A stretch of DNA of 64,000 nt from an uncultured Alphaproteobacteria bacterium (GTDB lineage: Bacteria; Pseudomonadota; Alphaproteobacteria; Rs-D84). The DNA is taken from the NCBI GenBank assembly GCA_949878575.1, contig CATLAX010000002.1:357634-421633 (forward strand), read 5' to 3'. Shown here piece after piece: positions 9,597-54,419 of the stretch. Position 1 is the first letter of the stretch. Each line of letters begins with the position of its first letter. Below the pieces are notes generated by a model. It was given only the letters and a program-made list of their open reading frames with translations. It ran no database searches and was not told the DNA's origin. The position numbers and the translations under genes were made by a program.

Positions 9597-9700
9597 TTAA
9601 AACAAATCCGCTTATGATTTATATAACACACCATAAATGCGGCCGGTTCGGTTATAATAAAGCGTTTGCAATATTGTTACCAGCGGATGCGTACGGAAAT

Positions 9701-9733
9701 AAAAAAATCCCCCGTTTGGGGGATTTTTTATTT
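9701..9733. terminator. Bidirectional rho-independent terminator (AAAAAAATCCCCCGTTTGGGGGATTTTTTATT)
   Basis: Perfect 8-bp GC stem with A-run upstream and T-run downstream; lies between convergent ORF 9312-9596 (+) and the HTH gene (-). Confidence 0.6.
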
Positions 9734-9952
9734 CCAGTACCGTAACAATTCCGGCGCCCACATCTGGATAACGCGGTATACCTGATACGGGGTCGGCGCA
9801 ATGCGCCCCTTTTCCATTTCATAGTACGCAATGCCGTGCACACCTATCTGGCGTCCGGCATGAAACGGGCTTAGTTTTGACCGGCGGCGGATTTTGTGCA
9901 TCCACAGCCCCAGGCTTTTATAAAATTCTTGTTCCGATTGTAATTTTTTCAT
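9728..9952 (-). CDS. Small XRE/Cro-type helix-turn-helix DNA-binding protein, copy 1 of a duplicated module
   Basis: 74-aa protein MKKLQSEQEFYKSLGLWMHKIRRRSKLSPFHAGRQIGVHGIAYYEMEKGRIAPTPYQ… with HTH_XRE-like signature (…Q..G…I..YE.G…P). The first ATG-GAG-GA of the tool ORF is better read as the GGAGGA RBS for the second ATG. An identical protein is encoded at 45239-45463. Confidence 0.7.
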   Translation of the reverse strand: MKKLQSEQEFYKSLGLWMHKIRRRSKLSPFHAGRQIGVHGIAYYEMEKGRIAPTPYQVYRVIQMWAPELLRYWK

Positions 9953-10169
9953 TTTTTCCTCCATGGTTTTTAGTTAATAAAAACACCGCCGTGATGAAAG
10001 GCGGTTGGAGGTTGATTACTACGAAAACGATAGTGCTGCTTATTCATATATATCACAGCCCTCCAACCAATTATGGAGTTAAAAAATGTTTTCAGAGGTA
10101 ATCACACCTCACACCGGTAATCGTCCGATGCGATAAAAACTATATCAAAATAAAATTAATATATGCAAA

Positions 10170-43804: not shown

Positions 43805-44614
43805 ATGAATATTGAAGCGCTGCGCGATCTGCATCTGGCCGGGGTTAAGTGGGAAATTACAGAACTGCCCCGCCCCGCCGCCGTGGCAATGGCCGCCGCC
43901 GCGCGCGCGGCAGAGGCGGCCGCAAAAAACGCGCCCGCCGTGAAATCCGTCGCAGACGACATTCAAATACCGGACAGTGCGCGAACACCCGTATTTTCAT
44001 CCGGCCCCGTCGTGGTGCCCAGTATTGCGCCGCTGTCGCCGGACACCGCACGGGCCGCCGCCGCACGACCCGTGGACGCAACGGCATTATGCCGCATGAT
44101 TGCGGAATTTAATCATCCGCTGCGCATAACCGCCCGTAACACGGTTCCGCCACATGTTGCGGACGCACCGTCCGGCCTGATGATAATAACGGACATTCCC
44201 GGCGCGGATGACGACGCGGCGGGCCAAATACTGACGGGGCGTGCGGGCGAACTGTTGAACAAAATGATGGGTGCAATCGGTCTGGGACGGGAAAACGTGC
44301 ACATCATGCCTGTTTTGTTCTGGCGCACACCCGGCGGGCGGGCCCCTGCGCGCGGGGAACTGGATTTGGCGCGGCCATTTGTAGACCGCATGATTGAATT
44401 AACATCGCCGCGCGTGATTATAACGATGGGGACGCTGGCCACGACGGAAATCGCGCATGTTGATTTGGCAAAAAATCACGGCGTCGTGCAGAACATTGAC
44501 GGCCGCGCCGTCATGCCGATTTTTCACCCGAATTATCTGCTGTTAAAACCCGCGGCAAAGCGTGACGCATGGACGGCGCTGCAGGCGGTGCAAAATTTGT
44601 TGAAAAACGCCTAA
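43805..44614 (+). CDS. Uracil-DNA glycosylase superfamily protein (family 4/5-like)
   Basis: C-terminal UDG-like fold motifs (…ITDIPGADDDAAGQILTGRAGELLNKMM…, …HPNYLL); long Ala/Pro-rich N-terminal extension. Confidence 0.65.
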   Translation: MNIEALRDLHLAGVKWEITELPRPAAVAMAAAARAAEAAAKNAPAVKSVADDIQIPDSARTPVFSSGPVVVPSIAPLSPDTARAAAARPVDATALCRMIAEFNHPLRITARNTVPPHVADAPSGLMIITDIPGADDDAAGQILTGRAGELLNKMMGAIGLGRENVHIMPVLFWRTPGGRAPARGELDLARPFVDRMIELTSPRVIITMGTLATTEIAHVDLAKNHGVVQNIDGRAVMPIFHPNYLLLKPAAKRDAWTALQAVQNLLKNA

Positions 44615-44658
44615 GAATAAATAATAATTCAAAACGTAACGATACAAAGGAGCATACG

Positions 44659-45213
44659 ATTAAACCTTCATTTAACCGTTCCGCGACCCGCGACATGGGT
44701 CCGCGCATGAATAATCGCATTTTTGCAAAATCCGTACAGGTAATTAGCGACACAGGCCAAAATTTGGGTATCATGCCCACGCCCCAGGCGTTGGCGATGG
44801 CCATGGATGCAGGTCTGGATTTGGTGGAAATAAACGCCAACGGCACGCCGCCCGTGGTAAAAATAATGGATTACGGCAAATTCAAATACGACCAGAAAAA
44901 ACGTGCGAACGAGGCGCGCAAGAACCAGAAAACGGTTGAGATGAAGGAAGTATGGGTAAAGCCTTTTATTGAAGAAAACGATTTGAACATCAAAATGAAA
45001 AAGGTGTTTGAATTTTTAGACGGCGGAAACAAGGTTAAGATTGCGGTCATGACGCGCGGGTCAAAGAAAGTACTGGCCCGGGGCAAGGATGCGGTGCCGG
45101 AACTGTTTGCACGCATTATGGAAATTGTTGGTGAACGCGGAACATTGGAATCCAAATCAAAACCGGATGAACGCACCAAGTCAATAATTGTCGCCCCGAC
45201 AAAGGCGAAATAA
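44659..45213 (+). CDS. infC: Translation initiation factor IF-3 with non-canonical ATT (AUU) start
   Basis: IF-3 N- and C-domains (…VKIMDYGKFKYDQKK…); AAGGAG RBS at 44647-44652, 6-nt spacer, then in-frame ATT at 44659; the tool ORF 44569 is a spurious upstream extension. Confidence 0.85.
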   Translation: MKPSFNRSATRDMGPRMNNRIFAKSVQVISDTGQNLGIMPTPQALAMAMDAGLDLVEINANGTPPVVKIMDYGKFKYDQKKRANEARKNQKTVEMKEVWVKPFIEENDLNIKMKKVFEFLDGGNKVKIAVMTRGSKKVLARGKDAVPELFARIMEIVGERGTLESKSKPDERTKSIIVAPTKAK

Positions 45214-45220
45214 AAAAATC

Positions 45221-45250
45221 CCCCGAACGGGGGATTTTTTATTTCCAGTA
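45221..45250. terminator. Bidirectional terminator (AAAAAAATCCCCCGAACGGGGGATTTTTTATT); a loop variant of the 9701-9733 hairpin
   Basis: Same stem as copy 1 with a different loop; lies between infC (+) and HTH copy 2 (-). Confidence 0.6.
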
Positions 45251-45463
45251 CCGTAACAATTCCGGCGCCCACATCTGGATAACGCGGTATACCTGATACG
45301 GGGTCGGTGCAATACGCCCTTTTTCCATTTCATAATACGCAATGCCGTGCACACCTATCTGGCGTCCGGCATGAAACGGGCTTAGTTTTGACCGGCGGCG
45401 GATTTTGTGCATCCACAGCCCCAGGCTTTTATAAAATTCTTGTTCCGATTGTAATTTTTTCAT
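45239..45463 (-). CDS. Small XRE-type HTH protein, copy 2 (identical protein to 9728-9952)
   Basis: Identical 78/74-aa translation; nt identity about 97-98% including about 200 bp of 5' leader. Confidence 0.7.
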   Translation of the reverse strand: MKKLQSEQEFYKSLGLWMHKIRRRSKLSPFHAGRQIGVHGIAYYEMEKGRIAPTPYQVYRVIQMWAPELLRYWK

Positions 45464-45689
45464 TTTTTCCTCCATGTTTTTTTAACTAAAAACACCGCCG
45501 TGATTAAAGGCGGTTGGAGGTTGATTACTACAAGATAATAGTGCTGTTTATTTATGTATATCACAGCCCTCCAACCGGTTGTGGAGTTTTTATATCTTGG
45601 AGGTAATCACACCTCACACCGGTAATCGTCCGGTGCGATGCGAATTATACCGGATTATTTTCGTGTTTGCAAATAATTACTGGATTGCC

Positions 45690-45790
45690 ACGGTCGCTAT
45701 GCTCCCTCGCAATGACAGTCGTACCGGAAATCATTGTCATTGCGAACGCAAGTGAAGCAATCCAGTAAAAAACGCCCCGGGCTGGGATTT
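45690..45790. repeat. Second copy of the nested palindromic element (outer IR ACTGGATTGC…GCAATCCAGT, inner IR CGCAATGACA…TGTCATTGCG) plus GC hairpin
   Basis: Inverted repeats read directly; homologous to 1-110; immediately downstream (minus strand) of the radical-SAM gene stop. Confidence 0.55.
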
Positions 45791-46782
45791 TATCGCTCGT
45801 TAAAACGCCATCCCTGTAACAGACGGGCGCGCGTTTCTTCGCGCCACGTGGCCTTTACCAAATCCACACGGGTATACAGCAACGACTTTGGTCCGTGTGC
45901 GGTATGCCATTTTGTTGAAATCTTGCGTCCTGAATTTTCGCCCAGCGTTACCCGCCCCGCACTGTCAAACGCAATCAAAGACATACCGTCGGCGGATAAA
46001 AACTGAAACTGTGGAAAATCAGAATGATGCGCCCATTCCATGCCACGCGCACGGCCGCCGTCAAGCAACGTTCCTTTTGAATAGTGCAATAAAATCTGGT
46101 CATCGACGATTGGCAACGAACGCATATTTGCCAAATCACCGACCAAAACTTCGTCTATAGTGTGACCACTTGAGCGTAACTGTTCCAATAATGCCGGAAA
46201 CATATCAACATGATTGTTAAAACCGGAAATATGAATAACAACGTTGGTATTTGGCATTTTGGCCAGGCGCGATATCACCGCGGCATTATTTTCTAATGCA
46301 TTTTTATGATACCTGTCCAGCGACAGCGAAATCTGCAATGAATACGGTTTGTGTGACGATATTACATGATGCAAATCCTGCAATATACTCTCGCCAAATC
46401 CGGCACGCACCCACGCGGCGTTGGTCTTTATATCGGTACCAATGCCCAAATCAAGACTGTGGTTCAATAATGTCGGCACATAATCGGCCGGTCCAAAGCG
46501 GTATGCCGACATAATTTCCCCGCCTGTAAACACAACATTATTTGAAAATGACTGGTCGGAATGCGCCTGGTCCAAATAAGAGCATATGGTACGGGCCGGA
46601 ATAAATGTCCGAGGATTCTTCGGCCCCGAACATTCACAGCAATGAGGGCACCGGTACCAACAATAATTTGTTGTTTTAAACACCAATACATACTTCGTAT
46701 GACGCAGTATGTTCCCCATGGGGAAATGCCGGTCGCGCCAGTTTAGGTATTTATAAATAATGCTCACAGGTATAAAATTCAT
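45790..46782 (-). CDS. Radical SAM domain protein, function unknown (lower GC than neighbours)
   Basis: CxxxCxxC motif NYCWYRCPHC and glycine-rich VVFTGGEI motif; 330 aa; AT-rich codon usage by eye. Confidence 0.7.
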   Translation of the reverse strand: MNFIPVSIIYKYLNWRDRHFPMGNILRHTKYVLVFKTTNYCWYRCPHCCECSGPKNPRTFIPARTICSYLDQAHSDQSFSNNVVFTGGEIMSAYRFGPADYVPTLLNHSLDLGIGTDIKTNAAWVRAGFGESILQDLHHVISSHKPYSLQISLSLDRYHKNALENNAAVISRLAKMPNTNVVIHISGFNNHVDMFPALLEQLRSSGHTIDEVLVGDLANMRSLPIVDDQILLHYSKGTLLDGGRARGMEWAHHSDFPQFQFLSADGMSLIAFDSAGRVTLGENSGRKISTKWHTAHGPKSLLYTRVDLVKATWREETRARLLQGWRFNER

Positions 46783-46832
46783 GTGCCACCTTTTTTGACA
46801 AAAGATAGCACACGACCCGATTTTGTCAATAA

Positions 46833-48050
46833 TTATTCATATCGCAGACTGTCAATCGGGTTTAGTTTGGCCGCCTTTAACGCCGGCACCACCCCGGACG
46901 CCAGTCCCACAATCACCGCAACAGACACCGACAGCACCACCGGCCAGATTGAAAACGGCACGTTGTATCCCAGGATAAGACGCCCCACCCCCTGGGACAG
47001 GCCCACCCCCAGAATCAGCCCCGTCATTGAGCCGATAAAGGATATGAATATGGATTCTGACAGGAACTGTATTATTATCTGGCGTTCACGGGCGCCGATG
47101 GCCTTGCGCACGCCGATTTCACGCGTACGTTCCGCAACAGACACCAGCATCATGTTCATAATGCCGATTGAACCCACCAACAGTGACACCGCCGCAATCG
47201 CAATCAGCAGCATTTTTAAATACCCCGTAACGGTGTTCATTGTTTCCATAACCTGTTTCATGTCCATAATCTGGAAATCATCCGCGGCGTCGTCCTTTAA
47301 CCGGTGCCGGTCGCGCAACAGTGCGGTTATCTGGTTTGTTGCCACGGTATTGTCTGCATCCGGATACAGTTTTAATGCAATCATGCCGACCGCGTTCGGA
47401 AAACGGCTGCCCTGCAGGCGCTTTTTTAATGTTGTTATCGGAATTATTATCATGTCGTCCTGGCTGCCCATGGCGGAATCGCCCTTTGCCCGGGTCATGC
47501 CTATTACGACAAAAGGCGTGTTTTGAACACGTATAACCTGGCCCACGGGGTCCGCCGGCAGGTCCAGTTCTTTTGCCGTTGTGGGCCCGATTACGGCATA
47601 TGTGGCCGCATTACGCACGGCTGCGTCGTCAAAGAACGTTCCCTTGTCCATTTCAACGTTTTGAACCGTCGTATAGGCGGGATACGCCCCGACCATGGAC
47701 GTGGCCCAGTTTTTATTGCCATAGACCACCTGGGCCGCGCTGTTCTGAACAGGCGTTATCGCCATAACATCCGGCAGGCGTCCTATAAATTCCGCATCAT
47801 CCGTGGTTAAGGTCTGGCGGTTGCCACTGCGCACGCCGCCCGTTTGCGCCGCACCGGCGCGAATCATAATAGTGTTCGTCCCCAGGGATGAAAACTGGTC
47901 CGTTATCTGCCGTTGCACGGTTTCACCCACGGCAACCATTATAACCACCGCCATAACGCCGATAACAATGCCCAGAACCGTTAAAAACGAGCGCATCTTG
48001 TTCCCGGAAACGGAAAGCCATGATTCCTTAAAAATATCGTTAAACGTCAT
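46833..48050 (-). CDS. MacB-type ABC transporter permease (FtsX family)
   Basis: N-terminal TM helix, large periplasmic domain, C-terminal 3-TM FtsX domain. Confidence 0.85.
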   Translation of the reverse strand: MTFNDIFKESWLSVSGNKMRSFLTVLGIVIGVMAVVIMVAVGETVQRQITDQFSSLGTNTIMIRAGAAQTGGVRSGNRQTLTTDDAEFIGRLPDVMAITPVQNSAAQVVYGNKNWATSMVGAYPAYTTVQNVEMDKGTFFDDAAVRNAATYAVIGPTTAKELDLPADPVGQVIRVQNTPFVVIGMTRAKGDSAMGSQDDMIIIPITTLKKRLQGSRFPNAVGMIALKLYPDADNTVATNQITALLRDRHRLKDDAADDFQIMDMKQVMETMNTVTGYLKMLLIAIAAVSLLVGSIGIMNMMLVSVAERTREIGVRKAIGARERQIIIQFLSESIFISFIGSMTGLILGVGLSQGVGRLILGYNVPFSIWPVVLSVSVAVIVGLASGVVPALKAAKLNPIDSLRYE

Positions 48051-48065
48051 TGTTTCCCCCCGGGG

Positions 48066-48791
48066 CTACAGATTACGGTCGCTTTTCGGCATGGGGCCGT
48101 CGTAATTTATATGGCCGTCGCGAATATGAATTAGCCGCGACGCATACTTTGCAATGTCAAATTCATGGGTAATCATGACAATCGTAATGCCCATGTCGTG
48201 ATTTAGCTGCTTAAAGAATTTCAAAATTTCGTTACCCATTTTACTGTCCAGGGCGCCGGTCGGCTCGTCCGCCAAAATCAATTTCGGGTCGCCGGCCAGG
48301 GCGCGCGCAATCGCGACGCGCTGCTTCATTCCGCCCGACAGCTGCGTCGGCAGATAATTTTCAAATTTTTCCAGTCCCACGCGCTTTAACATTTCGCGCG
48401 CGCGCCGCACGCGTTCCGACATCGGCAGCCCGCGGTACATCAGCGGCAACATCACGTTGTCCAGCACCGTCCGCTTTGCCAACAGATTAAACTGCTGAAA
48501 AACAAAGCCTATGTGCTGGTTGCGAATCACGGCCAGTTCGTCCGCAGACAGGCCCGTAATATTCCTGCCGTACAGTTCGTACGTCCCGCCTGACGGCGTG
48601 TCCAGCGCACCTATGATATTCATGCACGTTGATTTTCCGGAACCAGACGGCCCCATAATCGCCACAAATTCGCCGGCATGAACGTCAAAGGTTATGTCAA
48701 ACAAAACCTGCTGGGCGCCGCCGACCTCTAACGGGAAAATCTTCGTGATGCTTTTCAGCGATATTATAATTTCCGGTTTTTTGCTTTTCAT
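48066..48791 (-). CDS. ABC transporter ATP-binding protein (MacB/LolD type)
   Basis: Walker [13 protein letters not shown] signature LSGGMKQR, Walker [12 protein letters not shown]; start set at [13 protein letters not shown]. Confidence 0.85.
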
Positions 48792-48813
48792 ATGCCGCAC
48801 CGCCTTTGTCACA

Positions 48814-49995
48814 TTACATCGGGCCGCCCGGACCACGGCCGCCGCCATTGCGCTTGGCCCCGGTGGCGCCGGCGGAATCCATTCCCGCACGCCCGACGAT
48901 TATACGGTCGCCCTGCACTATTTCATCAGAGACAACCTCTGTCTCCGTCGCGGTTACCAACCCCTTTTCAAACGGGACCAGTGTCGCCTGTTCGCCCCGC
49001 AACAACGCCAGGTGTGTTTTAGGCGTCGCATCGCCCGGATTTTCCACTATTCCTTCAAAACTGCGCAGCAACAGGGCCGCATTCTGAACCTTCCAAACAT
49101 CGTGCTTTTCCGTTACGATGATTGTTACAAACGCCGTCATGCCCGGCATCAAGCGCAAATCGGAATTGTCAACATCTATCACCACCGTGTATACCACAAC
49201 GTTTGACGTTGTTGTCGGCGACAGGCGTATCTGGCGAACCACGCCTTCAAATGTCTGGGTCGGGTACGCGTCAACGGTGAATGTCACCGCCTGGCCTTCC
49301 TTTATTACGCCAATATCCGCCTCTGACACGGATGTTTCTATCTGCATACTGGTCAAATCTTCGGCTATTTCAAACAAATCAGGCGTCTGGAAAGATGCGG
49401 CGACCGTCTGGCCTTTGTCCACCTTGCGCGATATGACTGTGCCGTCCACGGGCGACGTAATCGTCGCATAGCCCAGGTTTGTCACAGCACGGTCGTACTG
49501 CGACTGGGCCCGTTTAACAGACTGTTCCGCCTGTTCATAGGTTGTCTGCGACTGCTCCATTTCCGCACGCGCGATATAGCCGTCGTTGTACAGGGTCTTG
49601 TTGCGCTTATATTCATTGCGGGCATAATTACGCTGGGACACGGCGGAATCAAGGGATGCTTTTGCCTCGTCCACGGACGCCTGCAGAACGGACGGCTCTA
49701 TTTTCAACAGCAAGTCGCCCTTTTTAACCTTTGAATTGTAATCCACGTACAGCTCGTCAATCGTACCGGATACCTGGGAACCGACACTGACCGTGTTTAC
49801 GGGCTTAATCTCGCCGGTGGCGGTCACAACCTGGCGCAGTTCACCCTTGTTTATCGGCAGGGTTACAAAGTCACCTTTTTTGGATTTGCCGCCGCCAAAT
49901 ATCAGCATCGCGCCAACAACAACCGCCGCCAGAATCAAAACCCACCATTTTCTGCGCCACAGCCATTTAAAAACGGCCTTTATTTTATTTTTCAT
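48814..49995 (-). CDS. HlyD/MacA-family periplasmic adaptor subunit
   Basis: N-terminal TM anchor, coiled-coil hairpin, barrel domains typical of membrane fusion proteins. Confidence 0.85.
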   Translation of the reverse strand: MKNKIKAVFKWLWRRKWWVLILAAVVVGAMLIFGGGKSKKGDFVTLPINKGELRQVVTATGEIKPVNTVSVGSQVSGTIDELYVDYNSKVKKGDLLLKIEPSVLQASVDEAKASLDSAVSQRNYARNEYKRNKTLYNDGYIARAEMEQSQTTYEQAEQSVKRAQSQYDRAVTNLGYATITSPVDGTVISRKVDKGQTVAASFQTPDLFEIAEDLTSMQIETSVSEADIGVIKEGQAVTFTVDAYPTQTFEGVVRQIRLSPTTTSNVVVYTVVIDVDNSDLRLMPGMTAFVTIIVTEKHDVWKVQNAALLLRSFEGIVENPGDATPKTHLALLRGEQATLVPFEKGLVTATETEVVSDEIVQGDRIIVGRAGMDSAGATGAKRNGGGRGPGGPM

Positions 49996-51322
49996 AATCT
50001 ATACCCTCCTGTTCCAGTTCGGCCTTTATTTCCCCCACAGCCAGCGCAACCGCCGCCCGTTTTGTAAACAAATCATATTTGGCCGCGTTGTTCTGCTTTT
50101 GCGCGTCAACCAGTTCCGACTGCGCCGTCTGCCAGTCCAGCATGGTCGCACGCCCCACCTTGTACATGCCGGCGGTGACCTTTTCGCTTTCCGTTGCAGA
50201 CTGCAACAGTGTTTCCGTCTGGGTCAAAACCTTTTGCGCCGTTTTATAGTTCTGATACGCCGTAAATATATCCAGCGCGGCATTATCCGCCGCCGCACGC
50301 TCAGACTCTTTGGCACGGTCATAGTTCGCCTCGGCCGAACGCACGCCATAATAATTTGCAAAACCCGCAAAAATAGGCATGGATGCACGGATACCGATAC
50401 TGCCGGAAACCTTGTGCCCGTCGTTTGCAAACGAATCCAATTCCGTATCGTTCCAGGAAATGGAGCCGGTCGCAGAAATACTGGGCAAATTCTTTAAAAA
50501 AGACGCATTTCGCCGGTGCCAGGCCGCATCCTTGTTCGCGGTCGCACGCAGCAAATCGGGACGGCTGCGCCGGGCGGCCTCCAGCAGCTCGTCAATGCTT
50601 TTGTTTTCCGTTGTACGCCCGAAATTTGACGGCATGTCCTGAATCACAATATCCTGGTCGGCGGGAAACGACAATTTTGACAACAGTGTTCCCTTTGCGA
50701 TTTCACGGTTGTTTTTCGCCCGCTCCAGCGCCAGCTCACGACTGGCCAGGGTTGTTTCCGCCTTTAACACATCTGCCTTGGCGACAGAGCCGGCCTTGTA
50801 CTTCTTTTGCGCCATGTCGCGCGCGGTCTGGGCCACTGTCCGCAGTGAATCAGCACTGGCCACGTCCGCATCCGCGTTAAGCAGCGCATAATACGCCCCG
50901 ATTACACCGTATACGTAATCCTGAATACTTTCGTCATAATCAAAACCGGTGGCACGCCATGTCGCGGCCAAAGTATTTAAATCCGCCAGACGTTTTCCAA
51001 AATCAAAAATCAGATAAGACGCCGACAATGACGCCCCGTAATTCCAATCGCCCCAGTCTTTGTTGCGGTAATCGCGACCCGCACTGGCCCCGGCGGAAAT
51101 ACTCGGCAAATAACCGGCATAACCCGCGTTTTTTGAAAAGCGCGCCGATTCGGCCGCCAAATATGCGGATGTTGTTTGTGGATTCCGGCACAGCCCCAGC
51201 TCTATTACCTCTTGCAGTCCCAGCGGCGTTTCCGGCAAAGTTTGGCGCGTGGCGCAATTTTCAACAGGCGCGCCAAACGCAGATAATGGCAAAAAACATG
51301 CCAATAATGTAAACTTTCTCAT
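49985..51322 (-). CDS. TolC-family outer membrane efflux channel
   Basis: Signal peptide, tandem coiled-coil plus beta repeats, 445 aa; heads the efflux operon. Confidence 0.85.
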   Translation of the reverse strand: MRKFTLLACFLPLSAFGAPVENCATRQTLPETPLGLQEVIELGLCRNPQTTSAYLAAESARFSKNAGYAGYLPSISAGASAGRDYRNKDWGDWNYGASLSASYLIFDFGKRLADLNTLAATWRATGFDYDESIQDYVYGVIGAYYALLNADADVASADSLRTVAQTARDMAQKKYKAGSVAKADVLKAETTLASRELALERAKNNREIAKGTLLSKLSFPADQDIVIQDMPSNFGRTTENKSIDELLEAARRSRPDLLRATANKDAAWHRRNASFLKNLPSISATGSISWNDTELDSFANDGHKVSGSIGIRASMPIFAGFANYYGVRSAEANYDRAKESERAAADNAALDIFTAYQNYKTAQKVLTQTETLLQSATESEKVTAGMYKVGRATMLDWQTAQSELVDAQKQNNAAKYDLFTKRAAVALAVGEIKAELEQEGIDYEK

Positions 51323-51423: not shown

Positions 51424-51497
51424 GGCCTGGTGGCAGAGTGGTTATGCAGAGGACTGCAAATCCTTGTATGCCGGTTCGATTCCGACCCAGGCCTCCA
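51424..51497 (+). tRNA. tRNA-Cys (GCA)
   Basis: 74 nt; 7-bp acceptor GGCCTGG/CCAGGCC; anticodon loop CTGCAAA; TTCGATT T-loop; encoded CCA. Confidence 0.9.
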
Positions 51498-51500
51498 AAA

Positions 51501-51534
51501 TAAAACGCCCCGAACGGGGCGGTTTGTTTTTTGT
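51501..51534 (+). terminator. Terminator after tRNA-Cys (AAACGCCCCGAACGGGGCGGTTTGTTTTTT)
   Basis: GC stem-loop plus T-run. Confidence 0.6.
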
Positions 51535-53260: not shown

Positions 53261-53410
53261 TCTTCCTTTCCGATATTTTTCGTTTTTAGAGTATAAAATC
53301 CCCCAGCACCAGTCAAGGCATTAAAATATAAAAATATTTTCTGTATAAAAACATTGAAAAACAATAAGTTATACAATATTTCATATGAAACAAAACGAAT
53401 CGCCCGTTTT

Positions 53411-53439
53411 TTTGACAAACATCACATCTTGTGCTATCC
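53411..53439 (+). promoter_or_regulatory. Near-consensus sigma70-type promoter (TTGACA-17-TATCCT)
   Basis: -35 TTGACA at 53411-53416, 17-nt spacer, -10 TATCCT at 53434-53439; about 30 nt upstream of the AAGGAG RBS and GTG start. Confidence 0.45.
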
Positions 53440-53468
53440 TTAATAGGATATATTTAAGGAGAAAGATT

Positions 53469-54419
53469 GTGAAAATTAAATTTAAAAAGCTATTCAAATG
53501 GTCTTTGCCTGCAATTATTATAACAACCGGCGCGTTCGTTTCTTCGCACACATCCGCCAACATTCAAAACAAGGAAGAAGTACAAAAAGCGGCAACAACC
53601 ATAAAAGACAACCGTCCGGAAATAAGAATCAGATATGATACCATTTATCTTACGGAAGAATATCTGGATACAAATAAAAGCATCAATCTGGGACTATTCT
53701 TACCAACCGACAACAGCGTCAGCATGAAACATTTTGTTCCGGTTGACAGCACAAAACGCGTAATGAATTTTGCCCAAACCCACAACAGCCAGCGCGCGGC
53801 TATTTTGCGTCACGAGCTGGAGCACGGCCGCAAGGCGCACCTGTGGGCAAACACAGAAGACAGGGCGCCGTTCGTACGCGGCCAGATAGCATGCATGAAC
53901 GAGGTTATGGCCCCGGCCGGAGAGGTTATAGAAAGCGCCGAGAACGAATGGCTGACCGGCATTCCGACCCAGGGTCCGGACATGTTGAAAAAAACAACCA
54001 GCGCCATTTTAGACGAAAACAGAAAAACACCTTTTGGCTTAATGGGCGGGGTTGACTTTACAAACCAGAAAATTGCGGATATTGTTTTAAAATACGCAAT
54101 AGATAAATATATCAGGGAGTTTAACCGCGGCGTTTACAAATGGCCTGTACGAAAAAAACTGGACGCGAACAGAAAACATATCAATTACAAACCAAACAAA
54201 GAATGCAATCCCATGGACAAAATAATGTTCTTTCCGGAAAGCGGCGACTGGAGCCAGATGTTTGCATACAAAACCAAAAGCGGCAAAAATATAAACATAT
54301 GGAAAAGTGCATCAGAAAAAATGCGCCGCGAGGTACGGGAACGTGTTGATTCTGCGACAAACTCATTACTAAAGCCCGGCGAATACTTAACTGCTTTTAA
54401 AACACCGGAAAAAAAGTAA
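53469..54419 (+). CDS. Secreted hypothetical protein with HExxH zinc-metalloprotease-like motif (lower GC)
   Basis: GTG start after AAGGAG RBS gives signal peptide VKIKFKKLFKWSLPAIIITTGAFVSSHTSA; HELEH motif in …AAILRHELEHGRKAHLW…; AT-rich codon usage. Confidence 0.6.
   Translation: MKIKFKKLFKWSLPAIIITTGAFVSSHTSANIQNKEEVQKAATTIKDNRPEIRIRYDTIYLTEEYLDTNKSINLGLFLPTDNSVSMKHFVPVDSTKRVMNFAQTHNSQRAAILRHELEHGRKAHLWANTEDRAPFVRGQIACMNEVMAPAGEVIESAENEWLTGIPTQGPDMLKKTTSAILDENRKTPFGLMGGVDFTNQKIADIVLKYAIDKYIREFNRGVYKWPVRKKLDANRKHINYKPNKECNPMDKIMFFPESGDWSQMFAYKTKSGKNINIWKSASEKMRREVRERVDSATNSLLKPGEYLTAFKTPEKK

What the first reader, a model, noticed from the sequence alone, without database searches (positions are those of the whole stretch)
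45790..46782. Low-GC radical-SAM enzyme of unknown function appended to a MacAB-TolC-type efflux operon
The gene has the CxxxCxxC motif (NYCWYRCPHC) and a GGE-type SAM-binding motif. Its GC is visibly lower (about 40-45% by eye) than that of the flanking housekeeping genes. It lies 50 nt downstream of a four-gene efflux operon (TolC-like, HlyD-like, ABC ATPase, FtsX/MacB permease) on the same strand. It is followed by the palindromic element and HTH module copy 2. Radical-SAM maturases combined with MacB- or peptidase-type ABC exporters are a hallmark of RiPP and bacteriocin loci. No precursor peptide was identified, so this is speculative. It could equally be a horizontally acquired modification enzyme, for example viperin-like or antibiotic-resistance-related.
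Basis: partly seen in the sequence, partly recalled or inferred. Interest (0 to 1): 0.6.

Follow-up and report, generated by a model that had tools for sequence, protein, structure and literature searches.

The report
Lineage-specific orphan radical SAM enzyme
The gene is a real but uncharacterised radical SAM enzyme that a whole group of gut Alphaproteobacteria inherits vertically and transcribes from its own promoter; it is neither a horizontally acquired gene nor part of an antibiotic-peptide cluster with the neighbouring efflux pump.

Summary
A 330-aa ORF (45790-46782, minus strand) carries CxxxCxxC and GGE motifs and lies 50 nt downstream of a TolC/HlyD/ABC/MacB operon. Its GC is 46.3%, against a gene mean of 53.5%.

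The interpretation does not hold.
- The low GC is a family trait: the gene is below its locus GC in 68 of 68 orthologous loci, across genomes of 33-53% GC.
- The gene is single-copy in 66 species genomes of gut and rumen Alphaproteobacteria (Ca. Enterousia and relatives), always in one housekeeping block.
- It is next to MacB in only about 40% of them. In the closest relatives an opposite-strand gene separates the two.
- A conserved TTGACA/extended -10 promoter precedes it in every context.
- The flanking gaps are usually 120 nt or less, so there is no room for a conserved precursor peptide.

It matches no curated family. Its closest relative by sequence profile and by predicted fold is the peptide epimerase EpeE/YydG, but it lacks EpeE's auxiliary-cluster cysteines and the Cys223 H-atom donor.

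Best reading: a stand-alone, single-cluster radical SAM enzyme with an EpeE-like fold and a cysteine-free twitch-like C-terminal domain. It probably modifies a peptide or protein encoded elsewhere, but the substrate is unknown.

Modest interest.

The parts
45790..46782 (-). Radical SAM enzyme gene, 330 aa; a member of an unnamed family restricted to gut and rumen Alphaproteobacteria
   Evidence: ORF. At least 163 homologues at 38-98% identity. 66 species-level loci. AF2 model with pLDDT 92.3 and pTM 0.90. dN/dS 0.16-0.26 against close orthologues.
46633..46668 (-). Codons for residues 39-50, NYCWYRCPHCCE: the CxxxCxxC ligands of the radical SAM [4Fe-4S] cluster (C41, C45, C48) plus invariant H47, C49 and E50
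   Evidence: Invariant in all 38 aligned sequences. The same C..C.HCC pattern aligns with EpeE/YydG. These are the only cysteine columns conserved in the family.
46516..46527 (-). Codons for T86-G87-G88-E89, the GGE SAM-binding motif
   Evidence: Invariant. Aligned with FTGGE of EpeE.
45919..45972 (-). Codons for residues 271-288 (AFDSAGRVTLGENSGRKI): the most conserved C-terminal block, a beta-hairpin in the model; a twitch-like element without cysteines
   Evidence: Near-invariant columns F272, D273, G276, L280, G281, E282, I288. Strands 268-272, 277-280 and 288-291. A271 and E282 align with cysteines in the distant homologue P0136. The window protein has no cysteine after the GGE motif.
46802..46829 (-). 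Predicted promoter of the rSAM gene itself: TTGACA, 16 nt, TG-extended TATCTT, lying inside the 50-nt macB-rSAM gap
   Evidence: Consensus scan, 10 of 12 matches with TG. The same TTGACA-N16-19-(TG)nTAnnnT arrangement is found upstream of 44 of 68 non-redundant orthologues in most context classes (11 of 18 macB, 16 of 24 pal, 6 of 6 divergent abc, 2 of 6 pnp); background is 0.7% of random 90-nt windows. Predicted only; not shown experimentally.
46779..46815 (-). 16-bp hairpin that covers the Shine-Dalgarno sequence and AUG of the rSAM gene; its left arm overlaps the -10 box, so it can form only in read-through RNA from macB
   Evidence: MFE -23.9 kcal/mol, z = -5.9, 0 of 200 shuffles as stable. 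Conserved in the window, L001/L002 and L008-L010 but not in more distant orthologues. Its function is inferred.
46833..51322 (-). Neighbouring tripartite MacB-type efflux operon (TolC/OEP, HlyD-type adaptor, ABC ATPase, MacB_PCD+FtsX permease); a neighbour by synteny, not shown to be a functional partner
   Evidence: Pfam and NCBIfam. Variable adjacency across orthologous loci.
45207..45649 (.). Strain-specific insertion between the rSAM gene and infC: copy 2 of a ~450-bp repeat carrying a 78-aa HTH ORF (45239-45475, minus strand); not part of the rSAM unit
   Evidence: Repeat families D1, D7, D9 and D10. Relatives have only 22-27 nt between rSAM and infC.

Best explanation
The gene encodes a vertically inherited, single-copy, lineage-specific radical SAM enzyme of gut and rumen Alphaproteobacteria (Candidatus Enterousia and relatives). 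It is transcribed from its own sigma-70-type promoter as an independent unit. Its position after the MacAB-TolC-type operon reflects conserved, rearrangement-prone synteny near parAB and rsmG, not an operon or a biosynthetic cluster.

Mechanism. One [4Fe-4S] cluster bound by C41, C45 and C48 would reductively cleave SAM, which is held by the GGE, DIKTN and SLSLDxYH motifs, to give a 5'-deoxyadenosyl radical that abstracts a hydrogen atom from the substrate. There is no auxiliary cluster, so the enzyme has no auxiliary cluster of its own to pass electrons on. A redox-neutral or SAM-consuming outcome (epimerisation, rearrangement or similar) is therefore more likely than an oxidative cross-link.

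Substrate. The closest sequence and fold relatives are peptide-modifying enzymes, and the most conserved element is the twitch-like beta-hairpin. I therefore infer that the substrate is most likely a polypeptide (a protein or peptide encoded elsewhere and conserved in this lineage) rather than an adjacent RiPP precursor.

Status of each step. Shown: motifs, predicted fold, taxonomic distribution, synteny, purifying selection, absence of auxiliary cysteines, GC pattern. Predicted from sequence: the promoter. Inferred: cluster binding and SAM cleavage (from superfamily knowledge), the polypeptide substrate, and the redox-neutral outcome.

The confidence given applies to the core claim (an orphan, vertically inherited, independent radical SAM enzyme that is not a RiPP or HGT module). 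The polypeptide-substrate part alone I put at about 0.35.
For: - Motifs and invariant residues. Only the CxxxCxxCC cysteines are conserved, and the window protein has no cysteine after the GGE motif.
- No member hits SPASM, Fer4_12 or Fer4_14; 36 of 38 hit PF04055.
- The PDB profile search finds only EpeE/YydG (E = 4e-8, residues 37-208).
- AF2 model: pLDDT 92.3. Foldseek: EpeE E = 1e-10, TM 0.52-0.55 over 293-324 columns, then SuiB, SkfB, DesII, SpeY, PqqE and anSME.
- 66 loci, all from Alphaproteobacteria MAGs of gut or rumen, one match per locus.
- Conserved housekeeping block with variable immediate neighbours.
- Own promoter in 44 of 68 loci, against a background of 0.7%.
- An opposite-strand gene lies between macB and the rSAM gene in the closest relatives.
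- GC is lower than the rest of the locus in 68 of 68 loci.
- dN/dS is 0.16-0.26.
- Distant homologues are also stand-alone genes among housekeeping genes.
Against: - No substrate was identified, so the polypeptide assignment rests only on the nearest relatives, which share about 12% identity and TM 0.55.
- DesII, SpeY and BtrN, which act on small molecules, are also among the fold hits.
- The enzyme lacks the Cys H-atom donor that EpeE needs for epimerisation.
- The promoter is a consensus prediction.
- About 40% of orthologues do sit beside a MacB-type transporter, in two orientations, so a functional link cannot be fully excluded.
- Whether every genome of the clade carries the gene was not tested.
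Confidence: 0.75

Rival explanations
1. The enzyme acts on a small molecule or a lipid or envelope precursor rather than on a polypeptide. An example would be a sugar, nucleotide-sugar or lipid intermediate of outer-membrane or cell-wall biogenesis, in the manner of DesII, BtrN or SpeY, or of lipid-modifying radical SAM enzymes.
For: - DesII (E = 5e-6), SpeY, BtrN and GDGT-MAS appear among the fold hits.
- The upstream co-directional neighbour is an envelope gene in four independent arrangements: pal (~25 loci), bamD with divergent murJ (5 loci), skp (1 locus) and macB (~17 loci). gpsA is a frequent downstream neighbour.
- A lineage-wide single-copy gene suits a metabolic or structural role.
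Against: - The best sequence and fold matches are peptide-modifying enzymes.
- The gene has its own promoter and so is not co-transcribed with those neighbours.
- The neighbours may simply reflect origin-proximal synteny.
- No pathway genes travel with it.
Confidence: 0.25
2. One reading: the enzyme is a RiPP or bacteriocin maturase whose product is exported by the adjacent MacAB-TolC-type pump, as in the darobactin darABCDE or epeXEPAB/yydFGHIJ loci.
For: - The nearest characterised relatives are RiPP maturases.
- The ABC ATPase hits the darobactin exporter model DarD weakly (226 bits, cutoff 375).
- The gene is adjacent to a MacB-type transporter in about 23 of about 60 loci, in two orientations.
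Against: - No conserved short ORF lies next to the gene. The clusters of small ORFs found are out-of-frame shadows of neighbouring genes.
- Gaps are 5 and 38 nt in L004, 236 and 3 nt in L006, and 55 and 26 nt in L008.
- In most loci the neighbour is not a transporter.
- An opposite-strand gene lies between macB and the rSAM gene in the closest relatives.
- The gene has its own promoter.
- No leader peptidase, RRE or SPASM domain is present.
- The DarB permease model scores 20.9 against a cutoff of 700.
- Single-copy, clade-wide conservation is not what the usually patchy distribution of bacteriocin clusters would predict (my general knowledge, not tested here).
Confidence: 0.06
3. The gene is a horizontally acquired accessory module, for example a viperin-like antiviral enzyme or a Cfr-like resistance methyltransferase, as signalled by its low GC.
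For: - GC is 46.3% against 53.5% (z = -1.9) and codon usage is atypical (z = -1.6).
- There is a weak PADLOC pVip hit (24.6 bits, E = 4e-6).
- A repeat with an HTH gene is inserted next to it.
Against: - The GC deficit is present in 68 of 68 orthologous loci and scales with genome GC.
- infC, pal and rsmG are equally low.
- Synteny is conserved and there is a single copy.
- No relatives occur in viral contigs, and the BFVD hits are generic.
- No NCBIfam viperin hit appears for the window protein at E <= 0.1.
- No viperin, Cfr or RlmN structure is in the top 50 Foldseek hits.
- The HTH insertion is strain-specific and separate from the gene.
Confidence: 0.02

Closest known systems
EpeE / YydG, radical SAM peptide epimerase of Bacillus subtilis (PDB 8AI1-8AI6; NCBIfam TIGR04078)
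   Same: - It is the best and only significant PDB sequence-profile hit (E = 4e-8) and shares C..C.HCC.SS.P, FTGGE, N..W and S.D.YH.
- It is the best fold match over nearly the whole length (E = 1e-10, TM about 0.55, 293-324 columns).
- The size is similar, at about 320-330 aa.
   Different: - The TIGR04078 score is 19.5 bits against a cutoff of 300, and identity is about 12%.
- There are no C-terminal cysteines, hence no auxiliary [4Fe-4S] cluster and no Cys223-type H-atom donor (features from PMC13012085).
- There is no adjacent precursor, protease or dedicated exporter operon.
- It occurs in Alphaproteobacteria as a clade-wide single-copy gene.
SPASM/twitch radical SAM RiPP maturases (SuiB, SkfB, PqqE, anSME)
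   Same: Radical SAM core followed by a C-terminal beta-hairpin domain; Foldseek E = 1e-7 to 1e-3.
   Different: No SPASM or twitch cysteine motif and no Pfam SPASM hit in any of 38 members. No RRE or leader-binding domain. TM is only 0.36-0.49.
Darobactin locus darABCDE (a MacB-like tripartite exporter plus the radical SAM/SPASM enzyme DarE)
   Same: A gene order of MacB-type ABC exporter genes followed by a radical SAM gene. The ATPase resembles DarD (226 bits).
   Different: - The DarD (cutoff 375) and DarB (20.9 against 700) cutoffs are not met.
- No DarE-type hit is listed for the window protein at E <= 0.1.
- There is no darA-like precursor.
- The adjacency is not conserved.
Prokaryotic viperins (pVip)
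   Same: Weak PADLOC hit to the N-terminal radical SAM core (24.6 bits).
   Different: No NCBIfam viperin hit for the window protein; distant homologues score 19-34 bits against a cutoff of 180. No viperin structure is among the top fold hits. The gene is not in a defence island and is vertically inherited.

Membership tests
Radical SAM superfamily | CxxxCxxC motif providing three Cys ligands to a [4Fe-4S] cluster | tested here: met
   C41, C45 and C48 are invariant in 38 sequences. Cluster binding itself was not tested.
Radical SAM superfamily | GGE SAM-binding motif and a partial (beta/alpha)6 TIM-barrel core | tested here: met
   TGGE 86-89 is invariant. The AF2 model has alternating strands and helices over residues 31-237. 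All top fold hits are radical SAM enzymes.
Radical SAM superfamily | Pfam PF04055 gathering threshold | tested here: inconclusive
   The window protein scores 17.9 bits against a cutoff of 29.5. 36 of 38 family members hit at E <= 0.01, with a best E of 1.1e-8.
YydG/EpeE radical SAM peptide epimerases (TIGR04078) | Curated equivalog score cutoff (300 bits) | tested here: not met
   19.5 bits. Distant homologues score 20-44 bits.
YydG/EpeE radical SAM peptide epimerases (TIGR04078) | Auxiliary [4Fe-4S] cluster in an extended twitch (T-SPASM) domain | tested here: not met
   Feature taken from PMC13012085. The window protein has no cysteine after residue 67, and there is no conserved cysteine column outside CxxxCxxCC.
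YydG/EpeE radical SAM peptide epimerases (TIGR04078) | Cysteine H-atom donor (Cys223) opposite SAM | tested here: not met
   There is no cysteine in the C-terminal two thirds of the window protein. Only C49, next to the cluster ligand, is conserved.
YydG/EpeE radical SAM peptide epimerases (TIGR04078) | Operon with a precursor peptide (EpeX/YydF), a protease and an ABC exporter | tested here: not met
   No conserved small ORF, and the gaps are too short in most loci. No protease is present. The MacB adjacency is variable.
SPASM/twitch radical SAM maturases | C-terminal Cys-rich motif (Cx9-15Gx4C...CxxCx5Cx3C) binding one or two auxiliary clusters | tested here: not met
   No Pfam SPASM, Fer4_12 or Fer4_14 hit in 38 members and no conserved cysteines. 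A hairpin of similar position is retained; its flanking positions A271 and E282 align with cysteines in P0136.
RiPP biosynthetic gene cluster | Adjacent precursor peptide gene conserved with the maturase | tested here: not met
   1191 small ORFs from 74 loci were clustered; every recurring cluster is an alternative-frame shadow of a neighbouring gene or a hairpin repeat. Gaps were measured. The gap ORFs in the window lie in strain-specific DNA.
Prokaryotic viperin (pVip; NF038283) | Curated score cutoff (180 bits) and a viperin-type C-terminal nucleotide-binding extension | tested here: not met
   The window protein gives no hit at E <= 0.1 in NCBIfam. PADLOC gives 24.6 bits over the N-terminal core only. 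No viperin structure is in the top 50 fold hits.
Housekeeping radical SAM families (QueE, HemW/HemN, MoaA, RlmN/Cfr, NrdG, PflA) | Curated NCBIfam cutoffs | tested here: not met
   Only NrdG2 appears, at 14.2 bits against 131; the others are absent at E <= 0.1.
MacAB-TolC-type tripartite efflux pump (neighbouring genes) | MacB_PCD+FtsX permease, ABC ATPase, HlyD-type adaptor and OEP outer-membrane channel | tested here: met
   Pfam E-values of 5e-46 and 3e-21 (MacB_PCD and FtsX), 6e-33, 2e-23 and 6e-56. ATPase and permease are separate genes, so the fused E. coli MacB equivalog cutoff is not reached (236-241 against 966 bits).

The most novel reading that the evidence does not exclude
The enzyme is a cluster-less descendant of the EpeE-type peptide epimerases that was recruited as a housekeeping protein-modifying enzyme. 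It would install a D-amino acid or another radical modification in a conserved cellular protein, perhaps an envelope or outer-membrane biogenesis protein given the recurrent pal, bamD, skp and macB neighbours. It would do so throughout an entire order of gut Alphaproteobacteria, using a non-cysteine H-atom donor or an external reductant.
Probability: 0.1. Interest if true: 0.75.

Novelty: new variant of a known kind. Interest (0 to 1): 0.3.

Why it matters
If characterised, this family would show what an EpeE-like radical SAM scaffold does once it has lost its auxiliary cluster and its cysteine H-atom donor. It would also identify a function that is conserved in, and so far seen only in, an uncultured group of gut and rumen Alphaproteobacteria.

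In practical terms, the result removes a false lead. The locus is not a bacteriocin or RiPP cluster, nor a recently acquired resistance or defence gene. Low GC next to an efflux operon is here a conserved trait of the family.

Tried and rejected
- Paralogue idea: the ~330-aa unannotated protein between parA and rsmG in relatives is unrelated to the rSAM protein (BLASTP E = 2.3).
- Small-ORF clustering over 450 nt upstream and 400 nt downstream in 74 loci gave only shadows of neighbouring genes and hairpin repeats.
- Rfam scan of 44500-47500: nothing reaches a gathering score; the best hit is 29 bits against 55.
- Viral contigs: no relative. BFVD fold search: generic radical SAM matches only. 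The phage DNA collection has no match to the 314-nt gap.
- The PHROGs and PADLOC hits are weak and cover only the N-terminal core.
- Correlating rSAM identity with neighbour identity as a test of vertical descent was uninformative, because most orthologues sit at 40-45% identity.
- I first took the element after the stop codon (45751-45791) for a terminator. It does not fold better than shuffled sequence (z = 0.2) and was not found by the terminator scan, so I withdrew that claim.
- The start-codon hairpin is not a family-wide feature; it is conserved only in close relatives.
Full report
**1. What is in the sequence.**
- The ORF at 45790-46782 (minus strand) is real: 330 aa with an ATG start. 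It contains NYCWYRCPHCCE (residues 39-50) and TGGE (residues 86-89).
- The four genes upstream on the same strand are a TolC-like OEP, a HlyD-type adaptor, an ABC ATPase and a MacB_PCD+FtsX permease. The gap to macB is 50 nt.
- The gene's GC is 46.3% and its GC3 is 48.9%. The means for 53 window genes are 53.5% and 60.7%, giving z = -1.9 and -2.2.
- It is not uniquely low. In the same window infC is 46.2%, pal 47.9% and rsmG 41.4%.

**2. Family assignment.**
- Pfam gives only a sub-threshold Radical_SAM hit (17.9 against 29.5 bits).
- NCBIfam gives nothing near any cutoff. The best hit is YydG at 19.5 against 300 bits, and QueE, HemW, MoaA, RlmN and Cfr are absent.
- PADLOC gives a weak pVip hit over the N-terminal core (24.6 bits), and PHROGs gives only generic hits.
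- The protein nevertheless has at least 163 homologues at 38-98% identity. Almost all come from uncultured gut Alphaproteobacteria, and none has a functional name.
- In a 38-sequence alignment the invariant positions are C41, C45, H47, C48, C49, E50, T86-G-G-E89, D117, K119, T120, S152, S154, D156, H159, G243-R-A245 and a C-terminal block F272-D-x-x-G-R-V-T-L-G-E-N-S-G-x-K-I288.
- The only conserved cysteine columns are the four of CxxxCxxCC, and the window protein has no cysteine after the GGE motif.
- No member hits a SPASM or auxiliary-cluster Pfam model, while 36 of 38 hit PF04055.

**3. Structure and nearest relatives.**
- AlphaFold2 run with the family alignment gives a confident model (pLDDT 92.3, pTM 0.90). 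It shows a partial TIM barrel over residues 31-237, followed by three short strands and a long terminal helix.
- A profile search of all PDB sequences finds only EpeE/YydG (E = 4e-8), with aligned C..C.HCC.SS.P, FTGGE, N..W and S.D.YH motifs.
- Foldseek against the PDB also ranks EpeE first (E = 1e-10, TM 0.52-0.55, 293-324 aligned columns). SuiB, SkfB, DesII, SpeY, PqqE, HydE and anSME follow.
- According to PMC13012085, EpeE is defined by a radical SAM cluster, one auxiliary [4Fe-4S] cluster in an extended twitch domain, Cys223 as the H-atom donor, and the epeXEPAB operon with the precursor EpeX.
- The window protein fails the auxiliary-cluster, Cys223 and operon criteria as well as the curated score. 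It resembles EpeE but is not a member of that family.
- An exhaustive profile search of 1.84 billion representatives finds only 336 proteins at E <= 1e-3.
- The more distant full-length homologues align over the whole length (hhalign probability 100%, E = 1.8e-57) and also belong to no curated family.
- In one of them (P0136), cysteines flank the C-terminal hairpin where the window family has A271 and the invariant E282. This suggests a twitch-like element that has lost its ligands.

**4. Genomic context across relatives.**
- A scan of one genome per species found 66 loci. All are gut or rumen Alphaproteobacteria MAGs (Candidatus Enterousia and relatives), with one match per locus.
- I annotated the flanks with window proteins as probes and with Pfam. 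The gene always lies in one housekeeping block containing infC, UDG, pal, parAB, rsmG, a TPR protein, gpsA, mreB, accBC and pnp.
- Its immediate neighbours vary by arrangement:
  - macB co-directional upstream: about 17 loci
  - abc-macB divergent: 6 loci
  - pal upstream: about 25 loci
  - pnp divergent: about 10 loci
  - bamD upstream, with murJ divergent: 5 loci
  - skp, FKBP, sspB, mreB or accC upstream: 1-2 loci each
- In the closest relatives (82-86% identity) an opposite-strand 170-aa gene lies between macB and the rSAM gene. Co-transcription with the pump is impossible there.
- The gaps on both sides are usually 120 nt or less, for example 5 and 38 nt, 236 and 3 nt, or 55 and 26 nt.
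- Clustering 1191 flanking small ORFs gave only out-of-frame shadows of the neighbours and hairpin repeats. A conserved adjacent precursor gene is therefore excluded.
- The window's 314-nt downstream gap and HTH gene belong to a ~450-bp repeat (its other copy is at 9696-10144). This repeat is inserted only in this strain, since relatives have 22-27 nt between rSAM and infC. The short ORFs in it are therefore irrelevant to the enzyme.
- Distant homologues are likewise stand-alone genes among housekeeping genes of small-genome bacteria.

**5. Independent transcription.**
- The 50-nt gap contains TTGACA, 16 nt, then a TG-extended TATCTT.
- The same arrangement, TTGACA-N16-19-(TG)nTAnnnT at a fixed distance from the start codon, occurs in 44 of 68 non-redundant orthologues. 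It is seen in 11 of 18 macB, 16 of 24 pal, 6 of 6 divergent-abc and 2 of 6 pnp loci. The pattern matches 0.7% of random 90-nt windows from the same loci.
- Most of the remaining loci still have TTGACA at -34 to -36.
- A strong hairpin (-23.9 kcal/mol, z = -5.9) covers the SD and AUG in the window. Its left arm overlaps the -10 box, so it could form only in read-through RNA from macB. It is conserved only among close relatives.
- Both features suggest insulation from the pump operon. This is an inference, not an experimental result.

**6. Horizontal transfer.**
- In 68 of 68 loci the gene's GC is below that of the rest of its locus (mean -3.9 points), in genomes ranging from 33% to 53% GC. The deficit is thus a conserved trait of the family that tracks genome composition.
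- The gene is under purifying selection (dN/dS 0.16-0.26).
- It is also the fastest-evolving protein of its block, at a mean of 45% identity against 55-93% for its neighbours.
- No relatives occur in viral contigs.

**7. What it most likely does.**
- Established knowledge of the superfamily lets one infer that C41, C45 and C48 bind a [4Fe-4S] cluster that cleaves SAM to a 5'-deoxyadenosyl radical for H-atom abstraction.
- Without an auxiliary cluster, a redox-neutral or SAM-consuming reaction is more plausible than an oxidative cross-link.
- The nearest relatives act on peptides, and the most conserved element is the twitch-like hairpin. I therefore favour a polypeptide substrate encoded elsewhere, at about 0.35.
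- A small-molecule, lipid or envelope substrate is the main rival, at about 0.25. It is hinted at by the recurrent pal, bamD, skp, macB and gpsA neighbours and by the DesII, SpeY and BtrN fold hits.
- The RiPP-with-MacAB reading (about 0.06) and the HGT, viperin or Cfr reading (about 0.02) are largely contradicted.

**8. Verdict.**
- The gene is an orphan radical SAM family: EpeE-like in core and fold, lacking an auxiliary cluster, clade-restricted, vertically inherited and independently transcribed.
- It is a new variant of a known kind. Uncharacterised radical SAM families are common and no function could be assigned, so the interest is modest (0.3).

Noticed in passing
window 9696-10144 and 45207-45649: A ~450-bp direct repeat (88-97% identical) carries a 78-aa HTH ORF (weak HTH_31 hit) plus ~170 nt of upstream sequence, bounded by a TCCCCCG...CGGGGGA hairpin. 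Copy 2 is inserted between the rSAM gene and infC only in this strain, which suggests a small mobile or duplicating regulator module.
   Followed up: partly
window 46779-46815 (-): A 16-bp hairpin (-23.9 kcal/mol, z = -5.9) sequesters the SD and AUG of the rSAM gene and overlaps its -10 box. It is conserved in the window, L001/L002 and L008-L010 only. It may act as an insulator or translational block for read-through from macB.
   Followed up: partly
L001 5139-5651 (-); L079 4122-4634 (-); also L002, L010, L080, L081: The closest relatives carry an opposite-strand 170-aa gene with an Ephrin_rec_like Pfam hit between macB and the rSAM gene. It is absent from the window, where only 50 nt remain.
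   Followed up: no
orthologous loci L017-L073, upstream of the rSAM start codon: In many orthologues the predicted -10 box ends only 5-10 nt before the annotated ATG. Either the mRNA is leaderless or the start codons are set too far upstream.
   Followed up: no
window 29407, 39262, 43006, 43132, 43249, 51580, 57523, 61568 (37-nt copies); also 61-101, 45751-45791, 51484-51524: Families of GC-stem/T-run hairpin elements (for example AAAAACGCCGGCATTTGCCGGTGTTTTTT) recur in intergenic regions and are probably intrinsic terminators. The copy just after the rSAM stop codon is degenerate and does not fold (z = 0.2).
   Followed up: partly
window 53385-54419 (+): A 344-aa ORF with the second-lowest GC in the window (42.9%), lying between parA and rsmG. 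Its homologues in relatives have no Pfam hit and are variably present, inverted or duplicated (two copies in L067).
   Followed up: no
window 45790-46782 versus L079 5001-5987; macB 46833-48050 versus L079 2879-4096: Between the same two genomes the rSAM gene has a higher dN/dS (0.16) but a much lower dS (0.50) than macB (0.058 and 1.16). This is unexplained; it could reflect composition or codon constraints, or recombination.
   Followed up: no
P0136, P0139 (distant homologues); window residues A271 and E282: P0136 has cysteines flanking the C-terminal hairpin at the positions that align with A271 and the invariant E282 of the window family. P0139 has cysteines in a similar arrangement by eye in its raw sequence. 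This hints that an ancestral twitch-type cluster site was lost.
   Followed up: partly
L031, L048, L050, L051, L065 (bamD-rSAM); L030 (skp-rSAM); ~25 loci (pal-rSAM): The upstream co-directional neighbour of the rSAM gene is repeatedly an outer-membrane or envelope gene in independent arrangements, even though the gene has its own promoter. This may be a functional hint or merely synteny.
   Followed up: partly
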